A DNA stretch of 43,071 nucleotides from Candidatus Hydrogenedens sp. (GTDB taxonomy: Bacteria > Hydrogenedentota > Hydrogenedentia > Hydrogenedentales > Hydrogenedentaceae). The translations under genes were made by a program, and so were the position numbers. Shown piece by piece: positions 4,801-39,998 of this stretch. Location of the stretch: positions 1 to 43,071 of the forward strand of contig JBMFRC010000024.1 of assembly GCA_049968235.1 (NCBI GenBank), read 5' to 3'. Numbering within the stretch: position 1 is the first letter of the stretch; every line of letters begins with the position of its first letter. The notes beneath the pieces are model-generated. The model was given only the letters and a program-made list of their open reading frames with translations, did no database searches and had not been told where the DNA came from.

Positions 4801-5142
4801 TCAACTTCTTTTTCGAGGACCACGATGACGGGCATGTGGATGTTTTTTGTGTGAAGGATTCCGACGAGGTTCTATATTTTCTTTCTCAGTTTCTTTCCGA
4901 ACAGTATTATTCACAGAAGGATTCGTATTAAAACTATAGCAACGAGGGCATCGAGAAATCTCTTCTGCTTCGGTATCAAGATATACAAAAGCACAATATT
5001 TGCATTCCCATATATTTTGGTTCTTAAATACGGTATAAATCCGTCGTGTACTAAATTCGGATAATCCCCAAAGAATAATACCTGAAAGAGCAATAATAAA
5101 TGAATAAATGATAAATGCTCCCGTTATTGATATTTCAATCAT
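4801..5142 (-). CDS. small membrane-anchored zinc-ribbon protein with a highly basic C-terminal tail (hypothetical)
   Basis: 113 aa with an N-terminal TM helix (ITGAFIIYSFIIALSGIILWGL), then CKYC...CPRC (two CxxC pairs about 18 residues apart), then the tail RRNPSHKKHPHARHRGPRKRS. Its ATG overlaps the upstream tonB-like stop by ATGA. The stop is 3 nt from the convergent PP2C gene. Confidence 0.45.
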   Translation of the reverse strand: MIEISITGAFIIYSFIIALSGIILWGLSEFSTRRIYTVFKNQNIWECKYCAFVYLDTEAEEISRCPRCYSFNTNPSVNNTVRKETEKENIEPRRNPSHKKHPHARHRGPRKRS

Positions 5143-6131
5143 AACGAGACTCCGTATATACGATAACGAATTGTTACTTGCTGTTCAACAGAATCCGTAT
5201 TTAGCAAAGGCTCAAAACGAATTTTATGAATCTCACCTTCTATATATTTTGACATTTCATCTTCAATTATATTTAAATCTATCACTCGCGATACTACTCC
5301 GTCCGGCAATACTGTTAACATAAAATCATAGTTCTTTTCCCCTTCCCCTATAGATTTTTTTGACATCTCCAATAAACCCGGGAAAAACAGTATCGTTCTA
5401 TTATAGGGAGGGTTAATCCACCTAAAAATAATCTCCGTTCCATCCCCAATATTCTGTTTCATTAATGGAGCATTATTACTATCATCAGGTTCTTTACTTT
5501 GAAGTCCCATAGACGGAGCAAATGGACTTAAAGCACTGATGGATTCTCTAATTCTGTTTATTCCTACACCAAATTGTGCCCAACTATCTTTATATTCTTC
5601 CGATAAAGGCTTTGGTGAAGGTTCCTCCTCTACCAATTTTCTACGGAGTTTTAATTTCTCCAGTTCTTGAAATTCAATTTTAGGAAGTTCAAAGCCACTC
5701 GACTGTTTTAATTCGGTTATATCAAATTCATTATTCTGATTATCTTCTCCCAAATTTTTTGATAATTTTAACCTCGATGTCAAAATAGAATCGGATGTTT
5801 TTTCTACATCTGACTGAACAACACGAATATCCAGATACTGAAGGTCAGAACGAGGAATATAGACCACAATTTTAAAGAGAGTTACTGCAGAAAGGTGCAG
5901 AAGAAGAGCAAAAATAATTGTCTTTAGAAAACGATTACGGTCTTTTTTTATCTGGAGCAGTAAATCTCCCTGATGACTTGTTGAAATGTCATATTGAAAT
6001 ATCTTTGCATCTGTCTTTGGTAAAACAATCGACTCTGAGATTTTTGAAAAATCAATATCCTTTTGAATATTTTCTTCAATCTCGTACTTTTTCTCGTGCT
6101 TGCGCACGGAATTTCGCGTGCGCCTTTTCAT
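5139..6131 (-). CDS. TonB-like energy transducer (N-terminal TM anchor, C-terminal TonB_C-like domain)
   Basis: The ORF track extends to 6302, but that overlaps exbD by 155 nt. The internal ATG at 6131 (MKRRTRN...) removes the overlap. There is a TM helix (IIFALLLHLSAVTLFKIVVYI). The C-terminal approx 90 aa match the TonB_C pattern (PPY..., GEG, LPDGVVSRV, YIEGEIHKIRFEP). It lies directly downstream of exbB and exbD. Confidence 0.5.
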   Translation of the reverse strand: MKRRTRNSVRKHEKKYEIEENIQKDIDFSKISESIVLPKTDAKIFQYDISTSHQGDLLLQIKKDRNRFLKTIIFALLLHLSAVTLFKIVVYIPRSDLQYLDIRVVQSDVEKTSDSILTSRLKLSKNLGEDNQNNEFDITELKQSSGFELPKIEFQELEKLKLRRKLVEEEPSPKPLSEEYKDSWAQFGVGINRIRESISALSPFAPSMGLQSKEPDDSNNAPLMKQNIGDGTEIIFRWINPPYNRTILFFPGLLEMSKKSIGEGEKNYDFMLTVLPDGVVSRVIDLNIIEDEMSKYIEGEIHKIRFEPLLNTDSVEQQVTIRYRIYGVSL

Positions 6132-6147
6132 TGTAATAATCCGTGTG

Positions 6148-6612
6148 TTATTGAGTTTTTTCTTCCGTATTTGATGGAATAGCAGCAATTCCATAATGTT
6201 TAATTCCAACGGAATTGGCAATTCCAAGAACTTTAACCAATCGTTCTGTAGGAACCCGACGGTCAGGTCGAATAAGTAAAAGTCCTTCGGGTTTCCTTTC
6301 ATAAAAACTTTCCATGGCTCTTGTTAATTCATACCAACTTTTAATTGGGATTTCCTTATCTTCCGTATAAAAAATTTCTCCTTGATTGTCGGGGCCTCCT
6401 TCACCGTATACCAATGTTACAGTGGCATCTTTCTGTTCTAATTGTTCTGATGATTCGCTTTTAGATAGTTCCACAGGTATGGATGCCTGCACAACAAAAG
6501 TAGAGGTCAGCATGAAAAAGAGAAGTAATTGAAACACCACATCAATTAAAGGAGTTAGGTCAATAGTGGCTTTAATCATTTTGTTTTGACTTTGTTTCCG
6601 TTTAAATTTCAT
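6148..6612 (-). CDS. exbD: biopolymer transport protein ExbD/TolR
   Basis: Contains the ExbD signature INLTPLIDVVFQLLLFFM and a single TM helix. Start is trimmed to the ATG at 6612 (MKFKRKQ...), which abuts the exbB stop at 6614. Confidence 0.8.
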   Translation of the reverse strand: MKFKRKQSQNKMIKATIDLTPLIDVVFQLLLFFMLTSTFVVQASIPVELSKSESSEQLEQKDATVTLVYGEGGPDNQGEIFYTEDKEIPIKSWYELTRAMESFYERKPEGLLLIRPDRRVPTERLVKVLGIANSVGIKHYGIAAIPSNTEEKTQ

Positions 6613-10689: not shown

Positions 10690-12465
10690 ATGCATCTATT
10701 TCGCACCCATAACTGTAATCAATTAAGAAAGTCTGATGTCGGGAAGGTAGTAAAACTTTCGGGTTGGGTACATACAAAACGCGACCACGGAGGAGTTATT
10801 TTTATTGATTTACGCGACCACTATGGAATTACGCAAATAGTTGTAAATCCAGACCTTCCTTTTTTCTCTGAGGTAGAAAGTGTGCGAAATGAAAGTGTAA
10901 TCACCATTGAAGGAGAAGTCGTTGCACGAACCCCAGAGACAGTAAATCCCAATATTGATACCGGTGAAATTGAAGTAGTAGCAGCTAACTTTCTTCTGGA
11001 ATCTGCCTGTGAACAGTTACCTTTCCCTGTTAATAAGGAAATTGAGGCACCGGAAGAACTGCGATTAGAATACCGATTTTTAGACCTCCGTAGAAATACA
11101 CTCCATAAAAACATTATGTTACGGACTCAACTTGCAAAACTTGTTAGAGAACACCTTATATCTCGTGGGTTTAACGAATTTCACACACCTATTCTTACTA
11201 GTTCTTCACCGGAAGGAGCACGCGATTTTCTCGTGCCCAGCCGAATATATCCGGGACAGTTTTATGCTTTACCCCAGGCTCCTCAACAATTCAAACAATT
11301 ATTGATGATTTCTGGTTTTGATAAATATTTTCAAATAGCTCCCTGTTTTCGTGATGAAGACTCCCGGGCAGACCGTAGTCCGGGGGAATTCTATCAGATA
11401 GATATTGAAATGTCCTTTGTAACTCAGGAAGATATTTTTAATGAACTTGAATTATTAATGATTCATATATTCAAAGAACTTTCAAATAAAAAAATTATCT
11501 GGGAAAAATTTCCACGCATTCCATACCGGGAGGCTATGGAAAAATATGGTACGGACAAGCCCGATTTGCGTTATGGATTAGAAATGCATGACTGCACAGA
11601 TATTTTTGCAAATTCAGAACTTAAAGTTTTTAGTGCACAGGTAGTTACAGGAGGAGTTATCAAGGTAATCCATTTGCCTCATGCAGACCAACAACCACGA
11701 AAGTTCTTTGATGATACGGAAGAGTATGCAAAAAGTGAAGGAGCAAAAGGCTTAGCGTGGCTTATTCTTAAAGAAGGAGATTTCAAAGGTCCCATTGCAA
11801 AATTCATGAAAGAGACAGAGAAAAAAGCCCTAATTCAAAAATTACAGATAAATGAGGGCGATGCCGTTTTCTTTGGGGCAGGTTCAAGAAATGAGACCAA
11901 TACGCTTATGGGTAAAGTGCGAACATATCTTGCACGTCAATTGAATATGATAGATTCCAATCAAGTAGCCTTCTGCTGGATTGTTGATTTTCCTATGTTT
12001 GAGTGGAACGAGGAAGAGAAACATTATGATTTCTCACACAACCCGTTTTCCATGCCTCAAGGGGGTATGGATGCATTATTAAACAAGAATCCACTGGATA
12101 TATTGGCATACCAATACGATATTGTTTGTAATGGGGTAGAACTATCTTCCGGTGCCATTCGTAACCATAAACCCGAAATTATGTTAAAAGCATTTGAAAT
12201 TGTTGGCTATCCTCCCGAAGTTGTTAAAAACAAATTTCCGGCGTTATGGAAAGCATTTCACTATGGAGCCCCTCCCCACGGAGGTATAGCCCCAGGTTTT
12301 GACCGCATACTGATGCTTTTGACAGACTCACCGAATATTCGTGAAGTTATTGCCTTCCCACTTAATCAAAAAGCACGCGACCTTCTTATGGGGGCACCCA
12401 GTGAAGTTACACCAAAACAACTTCAAGAACTGCACATCGCTATTGTTTCACCTAAAAGTAAGTAA
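10690..12465 (+). CDS. aspS: aspartate--tRNA ligase
   Basis: 591 aa. The N-terminal anticodon-binding OB region is RTHNCNQLRKSDVGKVVKLSGWVHTKRDHGGVIFIDLRD. Class II motifs FRDE, GGIAPGFDR and the GAD insertion domain are present. ATG is preceded by AGGAGA. Confidence 0.95.
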   Translation: MHLFRTHNCNQLRKSDVGKVVKLSGWVHTKRDHGGVIFIDLRDHYGITQIVVNPDLPFFSEVESVRNESVITIEGEVVARTPETVNPNIDTGEIEVVAANFLLESACEQLPFPVNKEIEAPEELRLEYRFLDLRRNTLHKNIMLRTQLAKLVREHLISRGFNEFHTPILTSSSPEGARDFLVPSRIYPGQFYALPQAPQQFKQLLMISGFDKYFQIAPCFRDEDSRADRSPGEFYQIDIEMSFVTQEDIFNELELLMIHIFKELSNKKIIWEKFPRIPYREAMEKYGTDKPDLRYGLEMHDCTDIFANSELKVFSAQVVTGGVIKVIHLPHADQQPRKFFDDTEEYAKSEGAKGLAWLILKEGDFKGPIAKFMKETEKKALIQKLQINEGDAVFFGAGSRNETNTLMGKVRTYLARQLNMIDSNQVAFCWIVDFPMFEWNEEEKHYDFSHNPFSMPQGGMDALLNKNPLDILAYQYDIVCNGVELSSGAIRNHKPEIMLKAFEIVGYPPEVVKNKFPALWKAFHYGAPPHGGIAPGFDRILMLLTDSPNIREVIAFPLNQKARDLLMGAPSEVTPKQLQELHIAIVSPKSK

Positions 12466-12471
12466 AATAAA

Positions 12472-13260
12472 TCATTTACATGAACAATAAAAGGAGTATT
12501 TTTCCTGCCAGATTTGACTACCTATTTTAACATGACCTTCTTCTACCCAAAAAAAGTCCACTTCCTTCGATAATTGCATATTAGGTCTTCGATAAACTAA
12601 AAATGGTAAGTCGTTTTTTTTTATCTCTTCTGTTTTATCAAAGTATTCATTTTTAGAGATATTCAGCATGTCTGCATTTCTAAATCCATTTCTTCCAAAA
12701 GGTAAAAAACGATATAGGTGCCATGCATGAATTTTTGCTCCTTTTTCCCATAAATGGAGTAGAAAAGCGGTTATCTCGTTTAATATATCTAAATTTATTT
12801 TGCAAACAACGGTGGATATCGTAAAAGGGATTTTTCTTTCTGTTAAATATTTCAGTCTATTCTTTATTATATCGTAGTGTTTTCGGAAACCTTTCCTCAG
12901 ATAATTATGAACCAGCGGATTGTTTGAATCAAGAGGTAGGACATATCTGTCCGCATTCAAATTTCCTATCACCTCTGGAGTTAAACCTATTCCATTTGTT
13001 CCTATTTGAGTATGAAGCCCCATCATCTTTGCTAAATTTATTGAATGTGATAAGGGGAATTTCCATTGCAAAGGTTCTCCTCCCCCAAAAACAACACTCT
13101 CCATTTCTCGTTCTTTTATTATTTTCAAAACTTCTTCTACCTGTTCTGGTATCATCTCTGATAGGGTATTTTCTGTAATACAGAATAGGCAACTCATGGA
13201 ACACGCACCATGAAGCATAATTACTCCTACCCTGCGATGTTGAATATCTATTTCTTGCAT
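12472..13260 (-). CDS. small radical SAM protein (single CX3CX2C cluster, activase-like), function unknown
   Basis: 262 aa. CSMSCLFC (CX3CX2C) at residues about 20-27 and the GGGEPL glycine-rich SAM motif. No SPASM or other C-terminal auxiliary domain is recognisable. Start is 3 nt after the stop of the upstream B12-radical SAM gene. Confidence 0.75.
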   Translation of the reverse strand: MQEIDIQHRRVGVIMLHGACSMSCLFCITENTLSEMIPEQVEEVLKIIKEREMESVVFGGGEPLQWKFPLSHSINLAKMMGLHTQIGTNGIGLTPEVIGNLNADRYVLPLDSNNPLVHNYLRKGFRKHYDIIKNRLKYLTERKIPFTISTVVCKINLDILNEITAFLLHLWEKGAKIHAWHLYRFLPFGRNGFRNADMLNISKNEYFDKTEEIKKNDLPFLVYRRPNMQLSKEVDFFWVEEGHVKIGSQIWQEKYSFYCSCK

Positions 13261-13262
13261 CT

Positions 13263-15389
13263 TTACTTCATCCGAACTGCTGAGATAGCAAACCTCAGTC
13301 CTGTGAAAATTTCAAAAAATAATACTTCTGGAATATAAAACATATTTTTCCATCGAAATCTTCCAATAGATAAATCATGTTTTAATCCTATCCACCAACG
13401 ATTAATTTTCCTTCGATGTGCAACAGATTTTATCATCATTTCTTCATAATTGCAAATTATTCTTTTCTTTACCAGGGAATCTAAACGGACTAAGTTTTCA
13501 AAGTTAGGAACACGACATTTAAAACCGCTTATTTGTTCCCTTAGCCCGGTTAATTGTTGTTCTAACCTTCGTTGTATTTTATGATTTATCTGTCCTGATG
13601 TTTGTGTTAATTGTAATATTAATTCGTTGGTTTTTTGAAGAATTTGCTCATACTCCTGGGAAACAAATTGTGTATAATGACTGGACTGCAATATTTGTGC
13701 TAAACAAGCACGAATTTCCTGAAGGTAAGAGTAAGCGGATGCTAAAGATTCCCGTTTTTCTTTTAATTGTTTTCTTGTTAATAACCATATCTCCTGATAT
13801 TCATAAAACACCTGCATAACTACTTTAACCTGGTTGAGAAAGTCTTTAATTCTCCTGTGTAAAAATGCTGTAATGCTTTCCTTTTCCATTGTTGGACGAC
13901 GCTCTTTGCGCACCTTTTTTCTTAAAAAGCCCATACTCATAGGATGATTAGACAATAGTGTTGAATAGCGATTCCATAAGGTTAACCAAAAAGCATTCCA
14001 ATACTGCTCTGGCGGGCAACGAAGTAAGATATCAATAATATTGTCTTTGGAATAAAAGAGTGACCATGCTTTTAACCATGATTTTTTTAATTCTCCTGTT
14101 TTGAAGTTAGGATGAGGAAAAGTTTCATGGCAACTATCAAAACAGTTGCAATCATCTGATATTTTTTCCCCTCTTTCAATTCGCTCTTTATGGTCTCTTG
14201 AACCCGGAATGGGAGTCATAATGAAAAAAGATGCTTCGTCCACTTTTACTTCACTTTTTAGTAATCGGACATCGTGGATAATAGTTTGAGGAGTATCACA
14301 GGGCATCCCTATGATATAACCTACATGAACAAGAATCCCCGCTTTATGCCATGCTTCTACCATCTCCGCATACTCAGACGTTTTATTTTGTGTCTTTCCC
14401 ATCAATACCAAATTTTGGGGGTTAATACTTTCCATACCGATAAAAACGAGATAACATCCTGCTTCTGACGCCATTTGAACAAAATCAGGAATTTTCCATG
14501 ATTGTGTATCAATTTGCATCATAAAGCGAATTTTTTTACCTTTTTGTTTCAATTCAATAAGCCCTGTAAATAGTTCCTTCCAAATAGGGGAACGGGACAT
14601 ATTATCATCTGTGAAAAAATAACTAAAAAAACCATTATCATAATTCTGCTCGACTACTTCCAGGATTTTTTCTGCAGAGCGACATCTAATTTTCCTTCCC
14701 TGAACATTAATTATGGTGCAGAAAGAGCAATTAAATGGACATCCCCTACTTGTATCTATTGTGCACATCGGTTGCATGAAGTGTTTTAGATATTCCGGGT
14801 CTGCTACAGGAATAGGGGCATTTTGAATATTGGGAGATTCTGAAATTATATAATAAGGTTGTAGCCTATTATTTATAGCATCATTCAATATAGTAGCAAG
14901 AATTCCACTTCCTTCTACTTCACCACACACCAAACTTACACCGTTATCCATCAATAATTTCAAATCAGGGGTGTTCGTGCCAAATAGTTTTATAACTCCA
15001 CTAACGTGAAATCCTCCTATTATTACGGGAACTTGATACTTACGAAATATCATAGCCAAATCGGTTGCCCTTGCGAACATATTGGTTTGCACACCCACCA
15101 GACCTACTATTAATATTTCATTTTGTTTCTTACTTTCTTTGACAATTTTATCTACATCTATCTTTTGAACAAATTCATCTCTTATTTCAACATGAATTTC
15201 ATATTGTTCATCAAGTTTTTTTTCATTAATCAATTGCTGTGTCAAAGCCCTCATGCATACAAGCGTATTGGAAGGCAATAATCCCTTCCAGAAATGATAC
15301 GGATAACCATCGTCATCATAATGTGAAGGAAGAATATAAAGAATTTTTACATTTTTCTTTTGTGTTGTTTTATGAAAAAACCAGTTCAT
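13263..15389 (-). CDS. B12-binding (class B) radical SAM protein with a long C-terminal extension
   Basis: 708 aa. The N-terminal Rossmann-like cobalamin-binding region is VGLVGVQTNMFARATDLAMIFRKYQVPVIIGGFHVSG. The radical SAM core has CPFNCSFC (CX3CX2C). The approx 250 C-terminal residues are rich in Q/E/K/R and look coiled-coil-like. ATG is preceded by GAAGGA. Confidence 0.75.
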   Translation of the reverse strand: MNWFFHKTTQKKNVKILYILPSHYDDDGYPYHFWKGLLPSNTLVCMRALTQQLINEKKLDEQYEIHVEIRDEFVQKIDVDKIVKESKKQNEILIVGLVGVQTNMFARATDLAMIFRKYQVPVIIGGFHVSGVIKLFGTNTPDLKLLMDNGVSLVCGEVEGSGILATILNDAINNRLQPYYIISESPNIQNAPIPVADPEYLKHFMQPMCTIDTSRGCPFNCSFCTIINVQGRKIRCRSAEKILEVVEQNYDNGFFSYFFTDDNMSRSPIWKELFTGLIELKQKGKKIRFMMQIDTQSWKIPDFVQMASEAGCYLVFIGMESINPQNLVLMGKTQNKTSEYAEMVEAWHKAGILVHVGYIIGMPCDTPQTIIHDVRLLKSEVKVDEASFFIMTPIPGSRDHKERIERGEKISDDCNCFDSCHETFPHPNFKTGELKKSWLKAWSLFYSKDNIIDILLRCPPEQYWNAFWLTLWNRYSTLLSNHPMSMGFLRKKVRKERRPTMEKESITAFLHRRIKDFLNQVKVVMQVFYEYQEIWLLTRKQLKEKRESLASAYSYLQEIRACLAQILQSSHYTQFVSQEYEQILQKTNELILQLTQTSGQINHKIQRRLEQQLTGLREQISGFKCRVPNFENLVRLDSLVKKRIICNYEEMMIKSVAHRRKINRWWIGLKHDLSIGRFRWKNMFYIPEVLFFEIFTGLRFAISAVRMK

Positions 15390-15527
15390 AGCGAAAATCC
15401 TTCAAGTAATGTATTAAAATTAGTGAGTTTCCTCTTTAATTTTATATTATAATATTTCTGTTTTAACTTTCTGAAACTAAAATATGTTAATTTATAAATA
15501 CTAATGAATAACACAAGGAGAAAAAAT

Positions 15528-16757
15528 ATGACAAAGGTAGTACTTGTTATAGGTTTATCTTTCTTAATGTTTTTTTTATGTTCCTCATATAATACCGTTC
15601 ATGCTGATTCTCGTTTCAAAGATGATGTTGAATTTTTGAAGCAATATGTAACCGTTATTCTATTAAAGGATGTAGAATCCAATGGAGAGGTAGCCATTGT
15701 TCCGGAATATCAGGGGCGAATAATGACGAGTACAGCAGAAGGTTCGGAAGGATTAAGTTTCGGTTGGATTAATCGTGATTTAATTGCGTCGAAAAAATTT
15801 GAACCTCATATCAATGTCTTTGGAGGTGAAGACCGATTCTGGATTGGTCCGGAAGGTGGGCAATATGGCATTTTCTTCCCTCCCAATACACCCTTTGATT
15901 TAGAGCATTGGCAAACCCCTGCCGTTATTGATACCGAACCGTATGAGATAGTTTCACAAGATGACAAACAAGTTTCTTTTAAAAAAGAGGCAAAATTAAA
16001 GAACTGGACGGGAACTGATTTTCAGATATTAATTGAGCGAACTGTTAGCATTTTATCTAAGGAACAAATAGCAGGTGCATTAGGAATTAGAATCCCTCCC
16101 AGTATTAAATATATAGGTGTTGAATCAAAAAATAAAATTACCAATACAGGCACAGATGATTGGAATAAGGAAAAAGGATTGCTTTCTATCTGGATATTAG
16201 GGATGTTCAATCCTTCGATGGAAACAACCATTGTTATACCTTTTCTACCTGGTTCCGAAGAAAATTTAGGTCCAAAAGTTAATGATGCTTATTTTGGAAA
16301 GGTTCCTGCAGATCGTCTGGTTGTAAGGGACAATGTGTTGTTTTTCCGTGGTGATGGTCAATATCGAAGTAAAATCGGGATTTCTCCTAAACGAGCGTTA
16401 TCTGTTTGTGGAAGTTATGATGCAAAAAACAAAGTTTTAACGATTGTTCAATACAGTAAACCGGATACATTAAAGCCATATGTAAACTCTATGTGGGAAC
16501 TTCAAAAAGAACCTTATGGAGGTGATGTAATTAATTCATACAATGATGGTCCATTAGTTCCCGGCAAAAAACCCTTAGGACCGTTTTATGAATTGGAAAC
16601 CTCTTCGCCAGCAGAAGAATTGAAAAGAGGTGAACATGTCGAACATACACATCGGACATTTCACTTCATAGGTAGTGAAAAAGAGTTAAATTATCTGGCA
16701 GAAGAAATTTTGGGAATTGATTTGCAGACTATCCAGAACGCTTTTGCAGGTAAATAA
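15528..16757 (+). CDS. secreted hypothetical protein
   Basis: The ATG at 15528 has an AGGAG RBS 8 nt upstream; the track ORF starts 24 nt earlier without an RBS. Signal peptide MTKVVLVIGLSFLMFFLCSSYNTVHA. No recognisable catalytic motif. It is followed by a strong intrinsic terminator. Confidence 0.5.
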   Translation: MTKVVLVIGLSFLMFFLCSSYNTVHADSRFKDDVEFLKQYVTVILLKDVESNGEVAIVPEYQGRIMTSTAEGSEGLSFGWINRDLIASKKFEPHINVFGGEDRFWIGPEGGQYGIFFPPNTPFDLEHWQTPAVIDTEPYEIVSQDDKQVSFKKEAKLKNWTGTDFQILIERTVSILSKEQIAGALGIRIPPSIKYIGVESKNKITNTGTDDWNKEKGLLSIWILGMFNPSMETTIVIPFLPGSEENLGPKVNDAYFGKVPADRLVVRDNVLFFRGDGQYRSKIGISPKRALSVCGSYDAKNKVLTIVQYSKPDTLKPYVNSMWELQKEPYGGDVINSYNDGPLVPGKKPLGPFYELETSSPAEELKRGEHVEHTHRTFHFIGSEKELNYLAEEILGIDLQTIQNAFAGK

Positions 16758-16829: not shown

Positions 16830-18041
16830 TTAGACGCTGGCGTTTGTTATCTGTTCTATCATGCTAATCATTGGATAGAACAAGGAAACGAACAGAGTAA
16901 CTACAATAATACCCACAACAATGGTAAAAATAGGTTGTAATGCTTCCCCTAAGGAATCAACTGCTATCTGAACTTCACTGTCATATATATCCGCTATTTG
17001 TTCTGCGATTTTATCTATACTTCCGGATTCTTCGCCAGTGATTAACATATCTGCAACAACGGGGGGTATTACATCCGCAGAGGTTCGTAAGGGTGCTTCT
17101 AAACCTCCTCCCCGTTCGATAGAATCACGCAAAGATTGCAAACTTTGAGCCACCGCCTGATTATGAATAGAATATTTTGTAAGTTCCAGAGACGACATCA
17201 TAGAAAGTCCACTTCTCAATAGCAATGACCATGTCCTCATCATTTCAACGATAGCATATTTATGAATAATCTTACCGATTATAGGAATTTTTAACTTGAA
17301 ACGGTCTGCAGATAATCGGCGGAGTGGATTTCGAATAAACCACACCTGATATAACAATATCAAGATAAGTAGTAATACAATAGGAAGCCACCACCAGACA
17401 CGGAACCAATCGGATATGCTGAAAAATAATTCCGTTGCTGGTGGAATTTTAATATTCTGCTTTTCATACATATCTTGAAATTGAGGAACAACAAAATTGG
17501 TCAGCAATAGTAATACTCCTAAACATGCAATTACAAGAACTATCGGATAAAAAAGAGCGCCGCGGACCTTTCTACGAAGTAAATCTCTTCTCTGACGATA
17601 GTCTACTAATCGTTGCAAAACTGTAGTAAGAGTACCACTGGCTTCACTGGCTTTAATTAAATTTACAAATACAGTATCAAAATATCGTGGGTGTCTATCA
17701 AAGGCTTGCCATAAAGGATTCCCTTCTTCTACATACAATGCCATATCATTAATTAGTCCTCGTATGGCATCTGATTGACCTCGCTGTGCTAATGTCTTTA
17801 ATGATTTTAATAAAGGTGTCCCTGATTCCAGAAGCATTATCAATTGTCGAAGAAAATCAGTAATTTCCTGATAACGAACGGTACCTTTTCTCATAAAGGA
17901 TAAACTTACGGATAAAGTATTGCTAACGATAGGTTCTCGTCGAATCACCTCTTCTTCACTTACGATTTGAGAAAGGCTCTGAACTTTTCCTTTTGTAGAT
18001 TTCCGAACTTTTTTTATTCCTTCGGCGTTCTTCTCAGCCAT
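16830..18041 (-). CDS. type II secretion / type IV pilus platform protein (GspF/PilC family)
   Basis: 403 aa with two repeated GspF/T2SSF domains and three TM helices. Characteristic PilC/GspF segments include LKSLKTLAQRGQSDAIRGLINDMALYVEEG and SLRDSIERGGGLEAPL. Confidence 0.8.
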   Translation of the reverse strand: MAEKNAEGIKKVRKSTKGKVQSLSQIVSEEEVIRREPIVSNTLSVSLSFMRKGTVRYQEITDFLRQLIMLLESGTPLLKSLKTLAQRGQSDAIRGLINDMALYVEEGNPLWQAFDRHPRYFDTVFVNLIKASEASGTLTTVLQRLVDYRQRRDLLRRKVRGALFYPIVLVIACLGVLLLLTNFVVPQFQDMYEKQNIKIPPATELFFSISDWFRVWWWLPIVLLLILILLYQVWFIRNPLRRLSADRFKLKIPIIGKIIHKYAIVEMMRTWSLLLRSGLSMMSSLELTKYSIHNQAVAQSLQSLRDSIERGGGLEAPLRTSADVIPPVVADMLITGEESGSIDKIAEQIADIYDSEVQIAVDSLGEALQPIFTIVVGIIVVTLFVSLFYPMISMIEQITNASV

Positions 18042-18066
18042 TGCTGTTCTCCTTATGTCTTTATCA

Positions 18067-19062
18067 TTATTTTATTTTTTCTGCCGGTATATTTCTATTC
18101 CAAACAACTATCGGATTACCTTCGACAAAAACGACACCTGCTTCCTTTGAAGCAAAAACATAATTGTATTTTTTACCCAAAGTTATCCTGCTTAGTTCTG
18201 CTACAGCTACAATCTTAAAACTGTTTGATTTCTCTGTAAACGGGAACTGCCAATTTAAAGATACATCATCAACTTTTATATTATATCCCGTTGTGGGTTT
18301 GCCTAATATCGTAATTAAGTCATTCATCGACTTTATGGGACGGGCATTAACAATTTTCTGTGCATCATCTGAACTTATATTAAACAAAGCCATCAAAACT
18401 TCTATGGGTGCTTTGTTCACATTTAAATAAGGAACTGGATGAGCAGGATTCCCCGCATTCCATGTAGAAACAAAATTTGTTACTTGTCCATTAAATTCTT
18501 CCGGAATAAATCCATTTGTTCCATACAATTCTTCTACTATATAGAACCACCTTCCTGAGGATGATGCCATTCCTGAATTGGGCAAATTTGTGACGATTCT
18601 TCTCGCTATTTCACCATTTGTATTTAATATTTTCTGTAGCACACTTGCCGGACTACAATTCAGATTAATCTTTCCACTTTCATCTGTTATCCAGACCTTT
18701 ACATTGACACTTATTGTATCCGATGGTTCTAATGCAAAAGTCCCGTTTCCTTTATATTCCTGTTTATAGTAAGGATAACTAAATTCTAGAGGACATTTAT
18801 CCAATAATTCTTGAAGGGTATCTGTTCGCCATGCTTTTTCTAACTCTACCAATGCAGAACTTATACCTGTTTTTGCATACTCTCTTACTCTCATTTCATC
18901 CAGAAGTAATGCTGTTCTTCTCAATTCGGTTTCTGCATCGCGTATATAATACATTCCAAGTAAGGCAAAAACTCCTAACAGGGATATGGCTATCATTAAA
19001 GCCACACCTTTTCTATTTGATTTATAAAATGATTCTTGAATTCTATTAAGCATAGTTCTCAT
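18067..19062 (-). CDS. GspK-like minor pseudopilin (general secretion pathway protein K-like)
   Basis: N-terminal TM helix (GVALMIAISLLGVFALLGMYY) and two helix-hairpin-helix-like motifs typical of GspK (KINLNCSPASVLQKIL and LNVNKAPIEVLMALFNISSDDAQKIVNARPIKSMNDLITILG). The ATG at 19062 overlaps the upstream pseudopilin stop by ATGA. The track ORF begins at TTG 19080. Confidence 0.5.
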   Translation of the reverse strand: MRTMLNRIQESFYKSNRKGVALMIAISLLGVFALLGMYYIRDAETELRRTALLLDEMRVREYAKTGISSALVELEKAWRTDTLQELLDKCPLEFSYPYYKQEYKGNGTFALEPSDTISVNVKVWITDESGKINLNCSPASVLQKILNTNGEIARRIVTNLPNSGMASSSGRWFYIVEELYGTNGFIPEEFNGQVTNFVSTWNAGNPAHPVPYLNVNKAPIEVLMALFNISSDDAQKIVNARPIKSMNDLITILGKPTTGYNIKVDDVSLNWQFPFTEKSNSFKIVAVAELSRITLGKKYNYVFASKEAGVVFVEGNPIVVWNRNIPAEKIK

Positions 19063-19691
19063 AGAATATTCCCTAACCAAAAAGTGCTTTCACGCACTAC
19101 TTGTTCCCATATCCTGTTCTCATCTGCTAAAACAAAACTCACTTTTATGGCTTTGGGATAAAAGGGTTTATCCCACTGTTCCAGCCAGTTATTTCCATCA
19201 TAACAATGAATTTTCATTGCAAGCACACCCGTCATGATAATTTCCCTTGCCCCACTTGGTTCTTTTTGTCCTGACGGACTTACCACTCGGACAAGGGCAG
19301 GGACACCGCCCAAACTTCTGTCTATGTAGTAAAAGACCTGCATAATTGAATTGTTATCATCAGAACTTACATAAAGGATAGGAAATGATATTTTATCATC
19401 ATCCAGAGGAACAGATTGATAACGTTTTTCATTTTCAATGTGTCGAACTACCCTTAAGTTTCCTTTTGTAAAGGTTGGAGAAACTATCTGGTCAAAATCT
19501 AATTGAAGCCGATTTATCAATCTCAAATAATTAATATTGATAGCCTGTCGAATTTCAGACTGGCGACGATAATCCATAATCTTACCGAACATAACCACGC
19601 CAATAGTGGATAGTATGGATAAGACAGCCAGAACCGTAATAATCTCAATTAAAGAAAAACCTCTACCATACACTCGCATAGTTTTCTTCAT
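19059..19691 (-). CDS. prepilin-type N-terminal cleavage/methylation domain pseudopilin (GspJ/H-like)
   Basis: Leader MKKTMRVYGRG, then FSLIEIITVLAVLSILSTIGVV with Gly at -1, Phe at +1, Glu at +5 and a hydrophobic helix. 210 aa. Confidence 0.7.
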   Translation of the reverse strand: MKKTMRVYGRGFSLIEIITVLAVLSILSTIGVVMFGKIMDYRRQSEIRQAININYLRLINRLQLDFDQIVSPTFTKGNLRVVRHIENEKRYQSVPLDDDKISFPILYVSSDDNNSIMQVFYYIDRSLGGVPALVRVVSPSGQKEPSGAREIIMTGVLAMKIHCYDGNNWLEQWDKPFYPKAIKVSFVLADENRIWEQVVRESTFWLGNIL

Positions 19692-20242
19692 TTTTTAATT
19701 ACCTTATCAATTTGGAAACGCGGAATAATTGAATTAACTGTATAGTACTTTGTTCGCCCAAATTCTTTATAAATCACAGTAACTACTATCTCATAGTACC
19801 CTTTTTCTTCGGGTAATAATTTTCCAAATGCTTTCCATCTAAATTTTTGGGAGACATTTTTATAATTTCTAAAACTTGCCCAATCCGGTGGGGCAATAAT
19901 GGGTATCTCTGTTACATTTCCAGCCTTTGCTTCATCTTCTGATGTTAAAATAGGAAAAACTTCTTCTTGAGCACTTGTATCGGGAATTTTCCAGATAAAT
20001 TTTTCAGGACAGTTTTTCAAATAATTTATCTTCTCATATGCTATATTACTGGCTAATATGGCATTTTGAGATGTTTGTGTCAGATTTAAACTTAATATAA
20101 ATAACTGTACCAGTGCAGTTATTGCTATACTTACCACAGCCAGAGCAACAAGTAATTCAATTAAAGTAAATCCCTCTATTCTTTTAATCCAAAATATCTT
20201 GTTTGTATCACAGTGTTTTTTTAGCATATGAAATACCATCAC
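19688..20242 (-). CDS. prepilin-type N-terminal cleavage/methylation domain pseudopilin
   Basis: RIEG-FTLIELLVALAVVSIAITALVQ class III signal with Glu at +5. The leader is unusually long (19-24 aa depending on start). 184 aa. It is the first gene of the operon and diverges from the LarA-like gene. Confidence 0.65.
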   Translation of the reverse strand: MMVFHMLKKHCDTNKIFWIKRIEGFTLIELLVALAVVSIAITALVQLFILSLNLTQTSQNAILASNIAYEKINYLKNCPEKFIWKIPDTSAQEEVFPILTSEDEAKAGNVTEIPIIAPPDWASFRNYKNVSQKFRWKAFGKLLPEEKGYYEIVVTVIYKEFGRTKYYTVNSIIPRFQIDKVIKK

Positions 20243-25466: not shown

Positions 25467-27731
25467 ATGATATATTTTACCCTTCTGTTATTTGCTTTGA
25501 ATTCATGGGAATTGCCTGCCCCAATTGATAAGGAAGCAGTTCCATCAGCATTTTTTAAGGACCGTTTACATGCATATATCTGGCTCAACTGGTCTGTTGT
25601 GCCTATTTCACGGATAGCAGATACAATAGGAGCGAAAGAAGAGGATATTCGCACTATTGGAAAACGAATGGGACTGCCTGAACCTTATCCAATTACAGAA
25701 GAAGAATTAGAACGATTGCATTGCACCATAATACGAAGAAATTGGCATCTACTCCCTTATGAACAAATCATAAAATTATTAAAATGGGATACACAGCAAC
25801 TGGCATACACATTACGCGAAGATGATTTCCTCTTTATTAAGTTAGGGGGGTTCAAACCTAAATGTCCACCATTAATCTATCAGGAACCTGATGAAGAAAC
25901 CCTTGAATATGAAAAACAAATAGGGAATATGGTAAACAGACTGTTTCCGGAAGGAATACAATGTTGGGGAGAAAAACCTTTCCATTTTATAGAAGAAATG
26001 TCTGCTATTAATAATAATTCTATTGTTGAAGTTTCAACTAAAGAAATCCCTCGTTATTGTTCCTCTTATTTCTTGAAATATGGAGACCCCTTTGCAAACC
26101 TTGAAGAATCCTATCCCCGGGGATATATACAAAAATTGCGAGAGAACGGTGTAAACGGCGTATGGCTACAATCGGTCCTTTATCTCTTAACTCCTTTCCC
26201 CTGGGATGTAGAAATTAGTAAAGGTTGGGAACAAAGATTAGAAAATTTAAAAGGATTTTCAGAAGAACTGAAAAAAGAAGAAATAAAAGTATATTTATAT
26301 TTAAATGAACCGAGGGCTATGCCTAATTCTTTTTATGAAAAATATCCGGAATTGAAAGGTGTTAATGAAGGAGATTTTTCTGCCCTTTGCACATCTCATC
26401 CTAATGTTCAGAATTATATAAGAAATGCTGTTAAGATGATTTGTGAAAAGGTTCCTGATTTAGGAGGTTTCTTTACTATTAGTGCTTCTGAAAATCTTAC
26501 TAACTGTTGGTCTCATCATCATGGGGAAAATTGCCCTCGTTGTTCGAAACGAAATCCTGCAGAGGTTATAGCGGAACTGCATCAACTCATTCAATCAGGA
26601 ATTGAATCTGCAAACTCGTCGTGTAAACTTATAGCATGGGATTGGGGCTGGAAAGATGATTGGGTCGAAGGAATTATCTCAAATCTACCCCCTAAAACAG
26701 CCGTTATGAGCGTTAGTGAATGGAATATTCCTATTACTCGTGGGGGTATCAATTCTATTATTGGAGAATACAGTTTGACCGAACCCGGACCGGGTCCCCG
26801 TGCTTCTCGGCATTGGGACATTGCCCATAAATATAACCATCCCATCTTTGCCAAACTGCAAATAGGAACAACATGGGAATTAGGTTCTGTTCCATATATT
26901 CCCGTTCTCGAAAATGTCGCTACTCATGCAAAAAACCTACGCGAGAAACATTTAGATGGTTGTATGCTTGGTTGGACATTAGGAGGTTACCCTTCTCCTA
27001 ATATGCAGGTATTTAATCTACTAATGGACCATCCTGAATATGATATAGATACTGCACTAATTCAGACTGCAGAAAAGCGATTCGGGAAAACAATGGCACC
27101 GATAATGGTTAAAGCATGGAAACAAATTACACAGGGATTTAAAGAATATCCATTCCATATTATTGTTGTTTATAAGAGTCCTGTTCATGTGGGTCCATCA
27201 AATCCTTTATGGGTCAAATCTACAGGATATACTGCCACTATGACAGGATTCCCTTATGACGATGTAAAAAACTGGTGTGGTGTATTCCCTCCTGAAATTT
27301 TTGCGAATCAGATGAAAAAAGTATCCAGCAGTTTTATGGATTCGCTTTCAATAATAAAAACAGTAATGAAAAATGACAATATAGATAACCCAATATATAA
27401 AAATAATTTTGAACAGGAGTGTAGAGTTATCGAAGTTTGTGCAATTCATTATGAAAGTGTTGCAAATCAAACTTACTTCATTCTTCTTCGAAATGAACTT
27501 ATAAATGCTAATGCGTCTGATGAGAGGAAAAAACAAATCATTGAAAACTTGAAACAGTTTATCCAGAGAGAAAAAGAATTAGCCATAAGAGAATATCATA
27601 TACAAATTTCTGACAGCCGATTTGGATTTGAAGCAACCAATCATTATTTCTTTGTTCCACTTGACCTGGTTCTTAAATCCCTAAATTGCGAAAACCTCTT
27701 GAATAACTGGATACCTCAAATTTCACAATAA
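25467..27731 (+). CDS. large hypothetical protein, possibly a glycoside-hydrolase-like TIM barrel, with a Cys/His cluster
   Basis: 754 aa with a hydrophobic N-terminus and Trp-rich segments. A CWSHHHGENCPRC motif (C-x8-C-x2-C preceded by three His) is present. It is only 32 nt downstream of the GT2 gene on the same strand. The functional call is weak. Confidence 0.4.
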   Translation: MIYFTLLLFALNSWELPAPIDKEAVPSAFFKDRLHAYIWLNWSVVPISRIADTIGAKEEDIRTIGKRMGLPEPYPITEEELERLHCTIIRRNWHLLPYEQIIKLLKWDTQQLAYTLREDDFLFIKLGGFKPKCPPLIYQEPDEETLEYEKQIGNMVNRLFPEGIQCWGEKPFHFIEEMSAINNNSIVEVSTKEIPRYCSSYFLKYGDPFANLEESYPRGYIQKLRENGVNGVWLQSVLYLLTPFPWDVEISKGWEQRLENLKGFSEELKKEEIKVYLYLNEPRAMPNSFYEKYPELKGVNEGDFSALCTSHPNVQNYIRNAVKMICEKVPDLGGFFTISASENLTNCWSHHHGENCPRCSKRNPAEVIAELHQLIQSGIESANSSCKLIAWDWGWKDDWVEGIISNLPPKTAVMSVSEWNIPITRGGINSIIGEYSLTEPGPGPRASRHWDIAHKYNHPIFAKLQIGTTWELGSVPYIPVLENVATHAKNLREKHLDGCMLGWTLGGYPSPNMQVFNLLMDHPEYDIDTALIQTAEKRFGKTMAPIMVKAWKQITQGFKEYPFHIIVVYKSPVHVGPSNPLWVKSTGYTATMTGFPYDDVKNWCGVFPPEIFANQMKKVSSSFMDSLSIIKTVMKNDNIDNPIYKNNFEQECRVIEVCAIHYESVANQTYFILLRNELINANASDERKKQIIENLKQFIQREKELAIREYHIQISDSRFGFEATNHYFFVPLDLVLKSLNCENLLNNWIPQISQ

Positions 27732-38942: not shown

Positions 38943-39998
38943 ATGGTTATTAAGTTAATAAAGGCTTTTTTTGTATTGGCATGTATTGTTATGGGTATCA
39001 TGTGGGCGTATTACCTTACCGGGGAGTTTAGTGAAAGCGCAAATACAAATATACGCATCTGGGGAATTCCCCAAAGATTATGGATACCTATTGGTGGCGT
39101 AACAGGGGCAATCATTGCCAGTGCTATTTTGTTGGCAATTCAATTTATCACACAGGAGATTTACGAACGTATTGCTCCTGCGCTGGTTGCTATTGTACTT
39201 GCCATGGTTGCAGGTTATTTCATTGGACAATACATCTTTTTCTGGGCACCTCAAGCAGAACTTACACTTCGTATATTCGTGATGGTCTCTTTAGTGCTTG
39301 TCTTTGGGTTCATTGGAATTGTTTTAGGATTAACTCGTGCTTCGAACTGGGAATCTCTCATTAGCGCCGTTCAGAAAAAAGGAACAAATTATAGTAATGT
39401 AAAAATAATAGATACCAGTATTCTCATTGATGGTCGAATTGCAGATATTTGTAAAAGTGGATTCCTTGAGGGAACACTTCTTGTTCCCCGATTCGTTTTA
39501 CGGGAACTACAAAACATTGCAGATTCAACAGACATTCTCAGACGAGCTAAAGGGAGACGGGGTCTGGATGTATTAAAATTTTTGCAAGATACTCAAATGG
39601 AATGTCAAATAGAAATTATTGAAGAAAATCCGAAAGATGTTCGTGAGGTTGATGCCAAGTTAGTTGCACTTGCCAAGAAATATCATGCCCCTATTTTGAC
39701 AACAGATTTTAATTTAAATAAAGTAGCACAAATTGAAGGAATTAATGTCCTGAATGTAAATGATTTAGCCAATGCATTAAAACCCATACTTTTACCTGAT
39801 GAACAGATGGAAATTAAAGTAATCAAAGAAGGAAAAGAAACAGGACAGGGAATTGGTTATTTAGATGATGGAACAATGGTAGTCATTGATGGAGGAAAAC
39901 CTTATCTGGGTCATACTATTAATGTGATCGTTACAAGTATTCTCCAAACATCGGCTGGAAGAATGATTTTTACCCGTTTTCAATCATTAGTATCATGA
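38943..39998 (+). CDS. yacL: PIN/TRAM domain membrane protein (YacL-like)
   Basis: N-terminal TM helices, a PIN domain (IIDTSILIDGRI...) and a C-terminal TRAM-like barrel (GHTINVIVTSILQTSAGRMIF). It lies directly upstream of ispD-ispF, as yacL does in Bacillus. Confidence 0.7.
   Translation: MVIKLIKAFFVLACIVMGIMWAYYLTGEFSESANTNIRIWGIPQRLWIPIGGVTGAIIASAILLAIQFITQEIYERIAPALVAIVLAMVAGYFIGQYIFFWAPQAELTLRIFVMVSLVLVFGFIGIVLGLTRASNWESLISAVQKKGTNYSNVKIIDTSILIDGRIADICKSGFLEGTLLVPRFVLRELQNIADSTDILRRAKGRRGLDVLKFLQDTQMECQIEIIEENPKDVREVDAKLVALAKKYHAPILTTDFNLNKVAQIEGINVLNVNDLANALKPILLPDEQMEIKVIKEGKETGQGIGYLDDGTMVVIDGGKPYLGHTINVIVTSILQTSAGRMIFTRFQSLVS

What the first reader, a model, noticed from the sequence alone, without database searches (positions are those of the whole stretch)
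12472..15389. Translationally coupled operon of a 708-aa B12-binding radical SAM enzyme with a coiled-coil tail and a small radical SAM partner, with no recognisable substrate gene
The pairing is a class-B (cobalamin-binding) radical SAM enzyme followed 3 nt later by a 262-aa radical SAM protein with a single cluster. The larger enzyme carries an approx 250-aa Q/E/K/R-rich C-terminal extension. Well-studied class-B radical SAM methylases and cyclases (e.g. HpnP, GrsA, Fom3, TsrM, OxsB; archaeal GDGT ring synthases) usually sit in recognisable biosynthetic clusters. Here the pair is wedged between aspS (convergent, 6-nt gap) and a secreted protein, with no precursor peptide, lipid, phosphonate or cofactor pathway genes nearby. 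It is a compact, self-contained two-enzyme module whose target may be a lipid, an RNA or a protein. The C-terminal extension could be a scaffold or substrate-docking domain.
Basis: partly seen in the sequence, partly recalled or inferred. Interest (0 to 1): 0.55.

Follow-up and report, generated by a model that had tools for sequence, protein, structure and literature searches.

The report
Uncharacterised radical SAM enzyme pair
Two adjacent genes in a Candidatus Hydrogenedens genome encode a large cobalamin-type radical SAM enzyme from a widespread but unstudied family, probably a membrane-lipid modifier, and a rare viperin-like radical SAM enzyme that accompanies it only in this lineage.

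Summary
The two ORFs are real: 708 aa at 13263-15389(-) and 262 aa at 12472-13260(-), separated by TAA-AG-ATG (2 nt, not 3).

The large protein has class-B radical SAM architecture. Its Rossmann domain is homologous to B12-binding domains and keeps invariant Gly-Gly and Gly-Glu cobalamin motifs, followed by a CxxxCxxC barrel. Pfam PF02310 and DUF4070 do not hit, no named NCBIfam family is reached, and the closest solved structure is AprD4.

The "coiled-coil tail" is a conserved helical-bundle domain that matches no known domain.

The large family is big: thousands of protein clusters in at least 598 species genomes across many phyla. It is usually a solitary gene.

Lipid clues:
- Two diverged Phycisphaerae proteins fuse a DesA-type acyl-lipid desaturase to it.
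- Omnitrophota loci place it beside a second B12 radical SAM gene and phosphatidylserine decarboxylase.

The small protein belongs to a rare viperin-like family (36 clusters at E<=1e-30 among 1.84 billion). It is not a viperin, an activase or a SPASM enzyme.

The pair recurs down to 49%/41% identity and in two different neighbourhoods, but each family mostly occurs alone.

Best reading: a lineage-specific operon whose large enzyme modifies a membrane-lipid chain. Substrate and chemistry are unproven.

The parts
13263..15389 (-). Large radical SAM gene (708 aa), a member of an unnamed, widespread class-B-type clade
   Evidence: ORF. PF04055 is the only Pfam family passing its cut-off. All NCBIfam hits lie far below cut-off. 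Thousands of full-length homologs. AlphaFold model pLDDT 85, pTM 0.86.
14835..15362 (-). N-terminal Rossmann domain (residues ~10-185), homologous to the cobalamin-binding domain. Long beta1-alpha1 loop with invariant Y24, D25, G28, P39, S40, N41. Gly-Gly (G125-G126) at the end of beta4 and Gly-Glu (G156-E157) after beta5.
   Evidence: hhalign of A1 against canonical B12 radical SAM alignment A5: probability 100%, E 1e-46, columns 23-469. Invariant columns. Secondary structure. Motif definitions from PMC9204698. PF02310 itself does not hit.
14190..14777 (-). Radical SAM barrel core (residues ~205-400). The CxxxCxxC codons (C217, C221, C224) lie at 14718-14741.
   Evidence: PF04055 residues 213-377, E 2.4e-15. 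Invariant C217/C221/C224.
13269..14189 (-). C-terminal region (residues ~401-707). Residues to ~545 are conserved across phyla (motifs D413, N415, D418, H421-E-T, HPM 482-484, RR 497-498, E530, Q532, W535). Residues 545-707 are helices found only in Hydrogenedentota and some Planctomycetota, ending in the most hydrophobic helix (680-707).
13258..13265 (-). Stop-start junction TAA-AG-ATG (2-nt spacer) between the large and small genes
   Evidence: Sequence. Spacers in orthologous pairs are 3, 3, 17, 26 and 41 nt. No terminator-like site in 12200-15700.
12472..13260 (-). Small radical SAM gene (262 aa), single cluster, viperin-like fold. CxxxCxxC codons at 13180-13203. Family signature H178-A-W-H-L-Y-x-F-x-P-x-G-R-x-G192, plus invariant R105, H118, R122, H128, R225.
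15390..15503 (.). 114-nt divergent intergenic region between the large gene and the DUF6786 gene. Best promoter-like match TTCAGA-18-TATAAT at 15475-15446 (-). GAAGGA lies 8 nt upstream of the large gene's ATG.
   Evidence: The number of promoter-like matches in the region equals the shuffled expectation, so this is only a candidate.
15504..16757 (+). Divergent DUF6786 gene. It is a conserved neighbour in the closest relatives only and has no shown functional link.
   Evidence: PF20583 E 1e-165. Same arrangement in L001-L003 and L086. Absent from L087.

Best explanation
This is a two-gene operon of Candidatus Hydrogenedens.

Gene 1 encodes a member of a large, unnamed clade of class-B-type radical SAM enzymes. 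It has a cobalamin-type Rossmann domain, a [4Fe-4S]/SAM barrel and a family-specific helical C-terminal domain. The enzyme most likely sits at the cytoplasmic face of the membrane. There it would use a 5'-deoxyadenosyl radical, probably with cobalamin, to modify an unactivated carbon of a membrane-lipid hydrocarbon chain. Methylation is the commonest class-B chemistry; desaturation or C-C bond formation are alternatives.

Gene 2 encodes a rare, single-cluster, viperin-like radical SAM enzyme. It is probably co-transcribed, and possibly translationally coupled, with gene 1. In this lineage only, it would perform a second radical step on the same substrate or product, or on its phosphate- or nucleotide-bearing head group.

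Shown: the ORFs, the domain architecture, the conserved cofactor motifs, the family distributions, and conservation of the pair in two genomic contexts.

Inferred: cobalamin use, the lipid substrate, the chemistry, and any functional link between the two enzymes.
For: Architecture:
- hhalign to canonical B12 radical SAM enzymes gives probability 100%, E 1e-46 over residues 23-469.
- The Gly-Gly (G125-G126, end of beta4) and Gly-Glu (G156-E157) motifs are invariant. A review of OxsB, TsrM and TokK defines these as the base-off cobalamin-binding motifs (PMC9204698).
- In NC10 loci a Peripla_BP_2 (BtuF-type fold) gene lies directly downstream.

Lipid link:
- P0119 (1043 aa, in two independent ENA assemblies) and P0340 (881 aa, Phycisphaerae MAG) are 66% identical through the junction. 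Both fuse an N-terminal membrane desaturase domain to this radical SAM family.
- In P0119 that domain matches NF052548, "Delta(5) desaturase DesA", over its full length at 365 bits; this is below the model's 500-bit cut-off.
- Omnitrophota loci L052, L054, L058 and L063 encode the large enzyme, then a B12/DUF4070 radical SAM paralog, then phosphatidylserine decarboxylase.
- 4HBT thioesterases flank it in 3 loci.
- Solitary placement in most genomes suits an enzyme acting on a universal cell component.
- The C-terminal domain is net basic and ends in its most hydrophobic helix.
- B12 radical SAM lipid methylases, cyclases and a desaturase provide precedent (bioRxiv 10.1101/2025.10.20.683597; PMC13459092).

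Pairing:
- The small ortholog lies immediately downstream on the same strand in L001-L003 and L086.
- It does so again in L087, where the proteins are only 49%/41% identical and the flanks are entirely different: UDP-glucose dehydrogenase on one side, lpxC-fabZ, lpxD, skp and bamA on the other.
- No terminator-like site separates the genes.
Against: - No experiment exists and no characterised homolog was found.
- PF02310 does not hit any listed family member.
- The lipid evidence is indirect. It comes from distant family members (42-50% identical) in other phyla.
- The window itself has no lipid genes next to the pair.
- No transmembrane segment is predicted (maximum 19-residue Kyte-Doolittle mean 1.47).
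- Most large-family genes lack the small partner, and the small-family members examined elsewhere stand alone. The two need not act on one pathway.
- The basic tail could equally bind nucleic acid.
Confidence: 0.4

Rival explanations
1. The two genes are co-transcribed, but their products have unrelated jobs. The large enzyme acts on its own substrate, as it does in most genomes. The small viperin-like enzyme acts independently on a nucleotide or another phosphate-bearing small molecule. The adjacency is a lineage-specific accident kept by inheritance.
For: - The small family is found alone in Planctomycetota, Omnitrophota, Schekmanbacteria and one further contig of unnamed taxon, in unrelated contexts.
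- Large homologs at 42-47% identity lack it.
- Family sizes differ by orders of magnitude.
- The small protein's nearest relatives by fold and profile are viperin-like enzymes. Viperins are nucleotide-modifying (own knowledge).
- Conserved Arg and His residues would suit an anionic substrate.
Against: - Adjacency, strand and tight spacing persist down to 49%/41% identity and across a complete change of flanking genes. Selection for linkage explains this more easily than chance.
- The small protein lacks viperin's C-terminal region and scores 48 bits against the 180-bit cut-off.
Confidence: 0.25
2. The pair modifies a macromolecule other than a lipid, such as rRNA, tRNA or a protein. The basic helical C-terminal domain would serve as the docking surface for nucleic acid or protein.
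For: - The C-terminal 250 residues are net basic: +9 for residues 460-545 and +12 for 545-708.
- Placement among housekeeping genes (aspS, argS, truA-like) is compatible.
- Solitary genes are typical of RNA-modification enzymes.
Against: - There is no TRAM, THUMP, PUA or other RNA-binding domain.
- The methylthiotransferase NCBIfam models score far below cut-off.
- The conserved fusion to an integral-membrane acyl-lipid desaturase and the phosphatidylserine decarboxylase linkage point to the membrane.
- No candidate peptide or protein substrate gene is conserved nearby.
Confidence: 0.15
3. The pair is a RiPP or natural-product tailoring pair whose precursor gene lies elsewhere or is too small to be called.
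For: Many class-B and small radical SAM enzymes tailor peptides or secondary metabolites. Weak NCBIfam hits include ApyD, KedN5 and sactipeptide maturases.
Against: - There is no SPASM or twitch cysteine motif and no RRE domain.
- No conserved small ORF, transporter or protease lies nearby.
- The large family is present in hundreds of species, mostly as a solitary gene among housekeeping genes.
- All such NCBIfam hits are far below cut-off.
Confidence: 0.05
4. The small protein is an activating enzyme (PFL-AE/NrdG type) that installs a radical on the large protein.
Against: - The large protein is itself a complete radical SAM enzyme with its own cluster and SAM motifs. It has neither a glycyl-radical fold nor the motif.
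- Activase models score far below cut-off.
- Eight other structures rank above PFL-AE, led by viperin and GDGT-MAS.
- Most large-family members have no such partner.
Confidence: 0.03

Closest known systems
Class B (cobalamin-dependent) radical SAM enzymes with solved structures: TsrM, TokK, CysS, OxsB, MgmA/QCMT
   Different: Only 13-21% identity. Pfam PF02310 does not hit. The beta1-alpha1 loop motif (YDDDGY...LPSNTL) is unique, as is the ~300-residue C-terminal region. There is no biosynthetic cluster. Every named NCBIfam model scores 5-10 fold below its cut-off.
AprD4 (radical SAM 1,2-diol dehydratase, PDB 6fd2)
   Different: 19% identity. NF033070 scores 39.7 bits against a cut-off of 500. 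AprD4 is 454 aa, lacks the helical tail and sits in an aminoglycoside cluster. From my own knowledge, not checked here, AprD4 does not use cobalamin, which is a caution against assuming cobalamin dependence.
B12 radical SAM lipid modifiers (HpnP/HpnR/HpnJ, ladderane TIGR04072, archaeal GrsA/B, Gmm, Cgm, Ted)
   Same: They share the enzyme class. They are often solitary or loosely clustered and act on inert lipid carbons at the membrane. HpnJ and the ladderane model are among the best weak hits. Precedent comes from the literature.
   Different: HpnJ scores 65.7 bits (cut-off 577.6), HpnR 43.1 (cut-off 650) and the ladderane model 55.4 (cut-off 360), so this is not a member of any of them.
Viperin and prokaryotic viperins (pVip)
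   Different: NF038283 scores 48 bits against a cut-off of 180. The match stops at residue ~209-217. The C-terminal part of the viperin models (PADLOC profile positions 194-262) is not matched; instead there is a beta-hairpin plus helix. No kinase or defence-gene context is present. The family has its own invariant HAWHLYxFxPxGRxG motif.
Tetraether synthase Tes / GDGT-MAS (PDB 7tom) and bacterial Mss
   Different: NF045702 scores 24.7 bits against a cut-off of 450. Tes is about 500 aa with additional clusters, whereas the small protein has only the three cluster cysteines conserved.

Membership tests
Radical SAM superfamily (both proteins) | CxxxCxxC cluster motif and a PF04055 match above the gathering score | tested here: met
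   Large: 57.5 bits (cut-off 29.5), C217/C221/C224 invariant. Small: 56.2 bits, C20/C24/C27 invariant.
Class B (cobalamin-dependent) radical SAM | N-terminal Rossmann-type cobalamin-binding domain preceding the radical SAM barrel | tested here: met
   hhalign probability 100%, E 1e-46 to canonical PF02310-bearing radical SAM enzymes across that domain. Fold matches to TsrM, TokK, CysS, OxsB and MgmA.
Class B (cobalamin-dependent) radical SAM | Pfam B12-binding (PF02310) match | tested here: not met
   No hit at E<=0.1 for the window protein. None of the listed homologs carries PF02310 in the precomputed annotation.
Class B (cobalamin-dependent) radical SAM | Gly-Gly motif on beta4 and Gly-Glu motif at alpha5 of the cobalamin domain, as defined from OxsB, TsrM and TokK (PMC9204698) | tested here: met
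   G125-G126 at the end of strand 122-125 and G156-E157 after strand 152-155 are invariant in 22 sequences. GE aligns to the invariant GE of canonical paralogs.
Class B (cobalamin-dependent) radical SAM | Actual cobalamin binding and dependence | not testable with these tools
   This needs purified protein (UV-vis, metal analysis, activity with and without cobalamin). No cobalamin riboswitch occurs anywhere in the window.
Named B12 radical SAM families (PhpK, HpnJ, HpnR, BchE, ladderane TIGR04072, AprD4, MgmA/QCMT TIGR04014, KedN5, BzaD, TsrM) | Score at or above the curated NCBIfam cut-off | tested here: not met
   The best is PhpK at 71.1 bits (cut-off 600). All others score 34.6-65.7 bits against cut-offs of 251-775. 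The same holds for five diverse homologs from other phyla.
DUF4070-type B12 radical SAM | PF13282 match C-terminal to the barrel | tested here: not met
   No hit. The Omnitrophota paralog next to the large gene does have it.
Viperin / pVip (small protein) | NF038283 score of at least 180 bits over the full length, including the C-terminal part of the model | tested here: not met
   48.3 bits, residues 18-207 only. PADLOC pVip 74.5 bits, residues 17-209 of 262. The nearest outgroup proteins are also sub-threshold at 88-133 bits.
Glycyl-radical enzyme activases (PFL-AE, NrdG) | Score at or above the TIGR02493 or TIGR02495 cut-off, plus a glycyl-radical enzyme partner | tested here: not met
   35.5 bits (cut-off 231.75) and 41.1 bits (cut-off 131.15). 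The adjacent large protein is a radical SAM enzyme, not a glycyl-radical enzyme.
SPASM/twitch radical SAM maturases | Auxiliary cysteine-rich C-terminal domain | tested here: not met
   Only C20, C24 and C27 are conserved in the small family. In the large protein C414, C416 and C420 are not conserved. There is no PF13186 hit.
Tes (tetraether synthase) | NF045702 score of at least 450 bits | tested here: not met
   24.7 bits for the small protein. The model is not among the hits of the large protein.

The most novel reading that the evidence does not exclude
The large protein would represent a widespread, previously unrecognised family of bacterial anaerobic membrane-lipid tail modifiers. These would be cobalamin radical SAM methylases, desaturases or cross-linkers acting on phospholipid acyl or alkyl chains. 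They are present in Acidobacteriota, Methylomirabilota, Planctomycetota, Omnitrophota, Hydrogenedentota and some Proteobacteria. Such a family could account for unexplained mid-chain methyl branches or related modifications of bacterial membrane lipids. In Hydrogenedens it would have recruited a new viperin-like radical SAM enzyme for a second step.
Probability: 0.2. Interest if true: 0.75.

Novelty: new variant of a known kind. Interest (0 to 1): 0.4.

Why it matters
Class-B radical SAM enzymes perform chemically difficult reactions on inert carbons, and few families have a known substrate. This family has thousands of protein clusters in at least 598 species genomes. No Pfam or NCBIfam family-level model recognised it, and my literature searches found no mention of it.

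The desaturase fusion and the phosphatidylserine decarboxylase linkage give a concrete, testable hypothesis: membrane-lipid chain modification without oxygen. If confirmed, it would add a bacterial counterpart to the archaeal Grs, Gmm and Ted enzymes. It would also bear on the origin of bacterial lipid biomarkers.

The small protein defines a rare sister group of viperin-like enzymes with a distinct invariant motif. That is of interest for the substrate range of the viperin fold.

If the pair turns out to be a chance adjacency of two orphan enzymes, the finding is ordinary.

Tried and rejected
1. Pfam, NCBIfam and PADLOC scans of both proteins found no family-level assignment. PF02310 and DUF4070 were absent.
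2. PDB sequence search gave only weak hits to AprD4, MgmA and TsrM, and to viperin for the small protein.
3. A synteny survey of 80 genome loci found no neighbour family conserved across the large family. It used all-against-all clustering of neighbours and a Pfam census of 146 immediate neighbours. Only other radical SAM genes were enriched, at 12 of 146.
4. The small protein as an obligate partner was rejected. It is adjacent only in the Hydrogenedens-related clade. The apparent partners in L057 and L067 are SPASM-type enzymes of 363-439 aa, not orthologs.
5. The activase hypothesis was rejected.
6. A defence-system or pVip reading was rejected. The scores are sub-threshold, the match is partial, and there is no kinase or defence context.
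7. An auxiliary cluster from C414, C416 and C420 was rejected because these cysteines are not conserved.
8. No transmembrane anchor was found by hydropathy.
9. Rfam and tRNA scans of the whole window found nothing, including no cobalamin riboswitch.
10. The terminator scan found none, and promoter-like matches were not above chance.
11. Literature searches for Hydrogenedent* with radical SAM returned zero papers. Searches on brGDGT, Acidobacteria and B12 radical SAM found no description of this family.
13. Direct comparison with Mss, Grs, Gmm and Ted was not possible because their sequences could not be fetched.
Full report
**Observation.** The window (about 35% G+C) carries two same-strand ORFs exactly where stated. 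They are 13263..15389 (-), 708 aa, and 12472..13260 (-), 262 aa. The junction reads TAA-AG-ATG, a 2-nt spacer rather than 3. aspS (10690..12465, +) converges on the small gene with a 6-nt gap. A DUF6786 gene (15504..16757, +; PF20583, E 1e-165) diverges from the large gene across a 114-nt spacer. Proteins 100% identical to parts of both ORFs are labelled Candidatus Hydrogenedens sp. Candidatus Hydrogenedens terephthalaticus carries a 90%-identical large protein. Surrounding genes are housekeeping: argB/argJ/argC, aspS, type II secretion and pseudopilin genes, a LarA-like gene and argS. No precursor-peptide, hopanoid, phosphonate or cofactor genes are nearby.

**The large protein: classification.** Pfam passes only Radical_SAM (residues 213-377). 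B12-binding (PF02310) and DUF4070 do not hit at E<=0.1. NCBIfam gives many weak hits to B12 radical SAM families (PhpK 71 bits, HpnJ 66, TIGR04013 60, ladderane 55, BchE 55, AprD4 40). All lie 5-10 fold below their curated cut-offs. Five diverse homologs from other phyla behave the same way.

A profile-profile comparison tested the N-terminal domain. It set an alignment of 22 family members (A1) against 10 canonical B12 radical SAM proteins that do carry PF02310 (A5). The result was probability 100%, E 1e-46, over residues 23-469. So the N-terminal domain is homologous to the cobalamin-binding domain.

A review of the OxsB, TsrM and TokK structures names two base-off cobalamin motifs: Gly-Gly on beta4 and Gly-Glu at alpha5 (PMC9204698). 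Both are invariant here, as G125-G126 at the end of strand 122-125 and G156-E157 after strand 152-155. Cobalamin use is therefore plausible but unproven. The best structural neighbour, AprD4, is to my knowledge cobalamin-independent.

**The C-terminal extension.** It is not a low-complexity coiled coil.
- Residues 400-545 are conserved across all phyla. Motifs include D413/N415/D418/H421-E-T, HPM 482-484, RR 497-498 and E530/Q532/W535.
- Residues 545-708 are conserved in Hydrogenedentota and some Planctomycetota, with E649, R659 and E693 invariant.
- The region is net basic (+21 over residues 460-708). Its last helix is the most hydrophobic segment, but no transmembrane helix is predicted.
- No Pfam domain matches it.

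**Family size and context.** The protein search returned 7987 hits among the 8000 candidates scored. The top 120 are almost all full length, about 700 aa. Two family-specific peptide patterns found at least 598 relatives in species-representative genomes. These span Hydrogenedentota, Planctomycetota, Acidobacteriota, Methylomirabilota, Omnitrophota, Nitrospirota, Delta- and Alphaproteobacteria and Chromatiaceae, including cultured Thiocapsa imhoffii and Thiocystis violacea.

Neighbours in 80 loci were clustered, and 146 immediate neighbours were scanned against Pfam. No conserved partner emerged. The only enriched class is other radical SAM genes, at 12 of 146. The family is essentially a solitary gene, as expected for an enzyme acting on a ubiquitous cell component.

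**Clues to the substrate.**
1. P0119 (1043 aa) occurs in two independent ENA assemblies. P0340 (881 aa) comes from a Phycisphaerae MAG. They are 66% identical straight through the junction, and both carry an N-terminal integral-membrane desaturase domain fused to this radical SAM family. In P0119 that domain matches NF052548, "Delta(5) desaturase DesA", over its whole length at 365 bits, E 3e-109, below the 500-bit cut-off. A conserved fusion to an acyl-lipid desaturase argues that the radical SAM domain works on membrane-lipid chains at the cytoplasmic membrane face.
2. In four Omnitrophota loci the gene is followed by a canonical B12/DUF4070 radical SAM paralog and then phosphatidylserine decarboxylase (PF02666, E 2e-34).
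3. 4HBT thioesterases flank it in three loci.
4. In three NC10 loci a signal-less Peripla_BP_2 (BtuF-type fold) gene follows directly, a weak hint at cobalamin handling.
5. B12 radical SAM enzymes that methylate, cyclise or desaturate lipid tails are established precedent.

None of this evidence comes from the window itself.

**The small protein.** It has a single CxxxCxxC and no other conserved cysteine. Its family signature is H178-A-W-H-L-Y-x-F-x-P-x-G-R-x-G192, with invariant R105, H118, R122, H128 and R225. The model is very confident (pLDDT 92).

An exhaustive phmmer search of 1.84 billion representatives found only 36 proteins at E<=1e-30 and 127 at E<=1e-10. The next-nearest proteins, about 285 aa, are themselves sub-threshold viperin-like. 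The small protein is thus a rare, distinct viperin-like branch. It is not a viperin, an activase or a SPASM maturase.

**Is the pair a module?** Evidence for linkage:
- The small ortholog lies immediately downstream on the same strand in L001-L003 and L086. There the large proteins are 60-90% identical to the window's, and L086 also shares the full DUF6786-pair-aspS-argCJB order.
- It also does so in L087, where the proteins are only 49%/41% identical and the flanks are completely different: UDP-glucose dehydrogenase upstream and lpxC-fabZ, lpxD, skp and bamA downstream.
- Spacers are 2-41 nt. No terminator-like site lies in the region. Linkage has therefore survived substantial divergence and rearrangement.

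Evidence against an obligate partnership:
- Large homologs at 42-47% identity (P0047, P0104, P0020, P0029) lack the partner.
- Small-family members in Planctomycetota, Omnitrophota and Schekmanbacteria, plus one more contig of unnamed taxon, stand alone in unrelated contexts.

The pairing is therefore lineage-specific and not required by either family.

**Conclusion.** The genes most likely form a bicistronic operon. The first product belongs to an unnamed, widespread class-B-type radical SAM clade whose best-supported target is a membrane-lipid hydrocarbon chain. The second is a rare viperin-like radical SAM enzyme that may add a second step in this lineage.

Architecture and distribution are shown. 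Cobalamin use, substrate, chemistry and any cooperation between the two enzymes are inferred. I rate it a new variant of a known kind, of moderate interest. The value lies less in the pair than in the large orphan family and the testable lipid hypothesis that the fusion proteins provide.

Noticed in passing
window 28529-30070 (-): A second radical SAM enzyme of the canonical class-B type (513 aa; PF02310 B12-binding E 1e-11 plus PF04055) lies about 13 kb from the finding. It also scores below every named NCBIfam family cut-off; the best is TIGR04013 at 82 bits against 251.
   Followed up: partly
L084 8001-11132 and L085 8001-11132; protein P0340: Fusion proteins of 1043 aa and 881 aa join an integral-membrane desaturase domain to the large radical SAM family. 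The P0119 domain matches the DesA-type model NF052548. P0340 comes from a Phycisphaerae MAG. The two are 66% identical through the junction. P0340 lacks about 90 residues of the helical tail but keeps the last hydrophobic helix.
   Followed up: partly
L052, L054, L058, L063 (Omnitrophota), e.g. L063 9896-14295: A conserved three-gene array: the large-family radical SAM gene, then a canonical B12-binding/DUF4070 radical SAM gene (about 540 aa), then phosphatidylserine decarboxylase (about 215 aa).
   Followed up: partly
L022 12297-13112, L032 8340-9182, L035 12168-13100 (Methylomirabilota/NC10): A Peripla_BP_2 (BtuF-type fold) protein without an obvious signal peptide is encoded directly downstream of the large-family gene. 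CofH/MqnC-type radical SAM genes lie upstream in the same lineage.
   Followed up: no
window 15504-16757 (+): The DUF6786 protein (417 aa, N-terminal signal-like segment) is divergently adjacent to the large gene here and in L001-L003 and L086, but not in L087. Its function is unknown.
   Followed up: partly
window 25467-27731 (+), 30215-31981 (-), 34290-36125 (-), 5139-6302 (-), 41489-42700 (-): Five sizeable ORFs (754, 588, 611, 387 and 403 aa) have no Pfam hit at E<=1e-5. The first three also have no NCBIfam hit at E<=1e-8.
   Followed up: no
window 16830-20242 (-): A type II secretion / pseudopilin gene set (T2SSF, T2SSK-like, N_methyl prepilin-type proteins) sits next to the DUF6786 gene. 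The same order occurs in L086.
   Followed up: no
window 231-1763 (-) and 38943-40693 (+): A long-chain-fatty-acid--CoA ligase (NF004837, 497 bits, above its cut-off of 476) lies at the window start. A PIN-TRAM protein is followed by ispD near the end.
   Followed up: no
window 1-43071: There are no tRNA genes and no Rfam family at gathering threshold anywhere in the 43 kb, including no cobalamin riboswitch.
   Followed up: yes
L087 8984-14148: In the most diverged genome that keeps the pair, it sits convergent to an lpxC-fabZ fusion, lpxD, skp and bamA (outer-membrane and lipid A biogenesis). KDO/NeuB-type sugar genes lie upstream.
   Followed up: no
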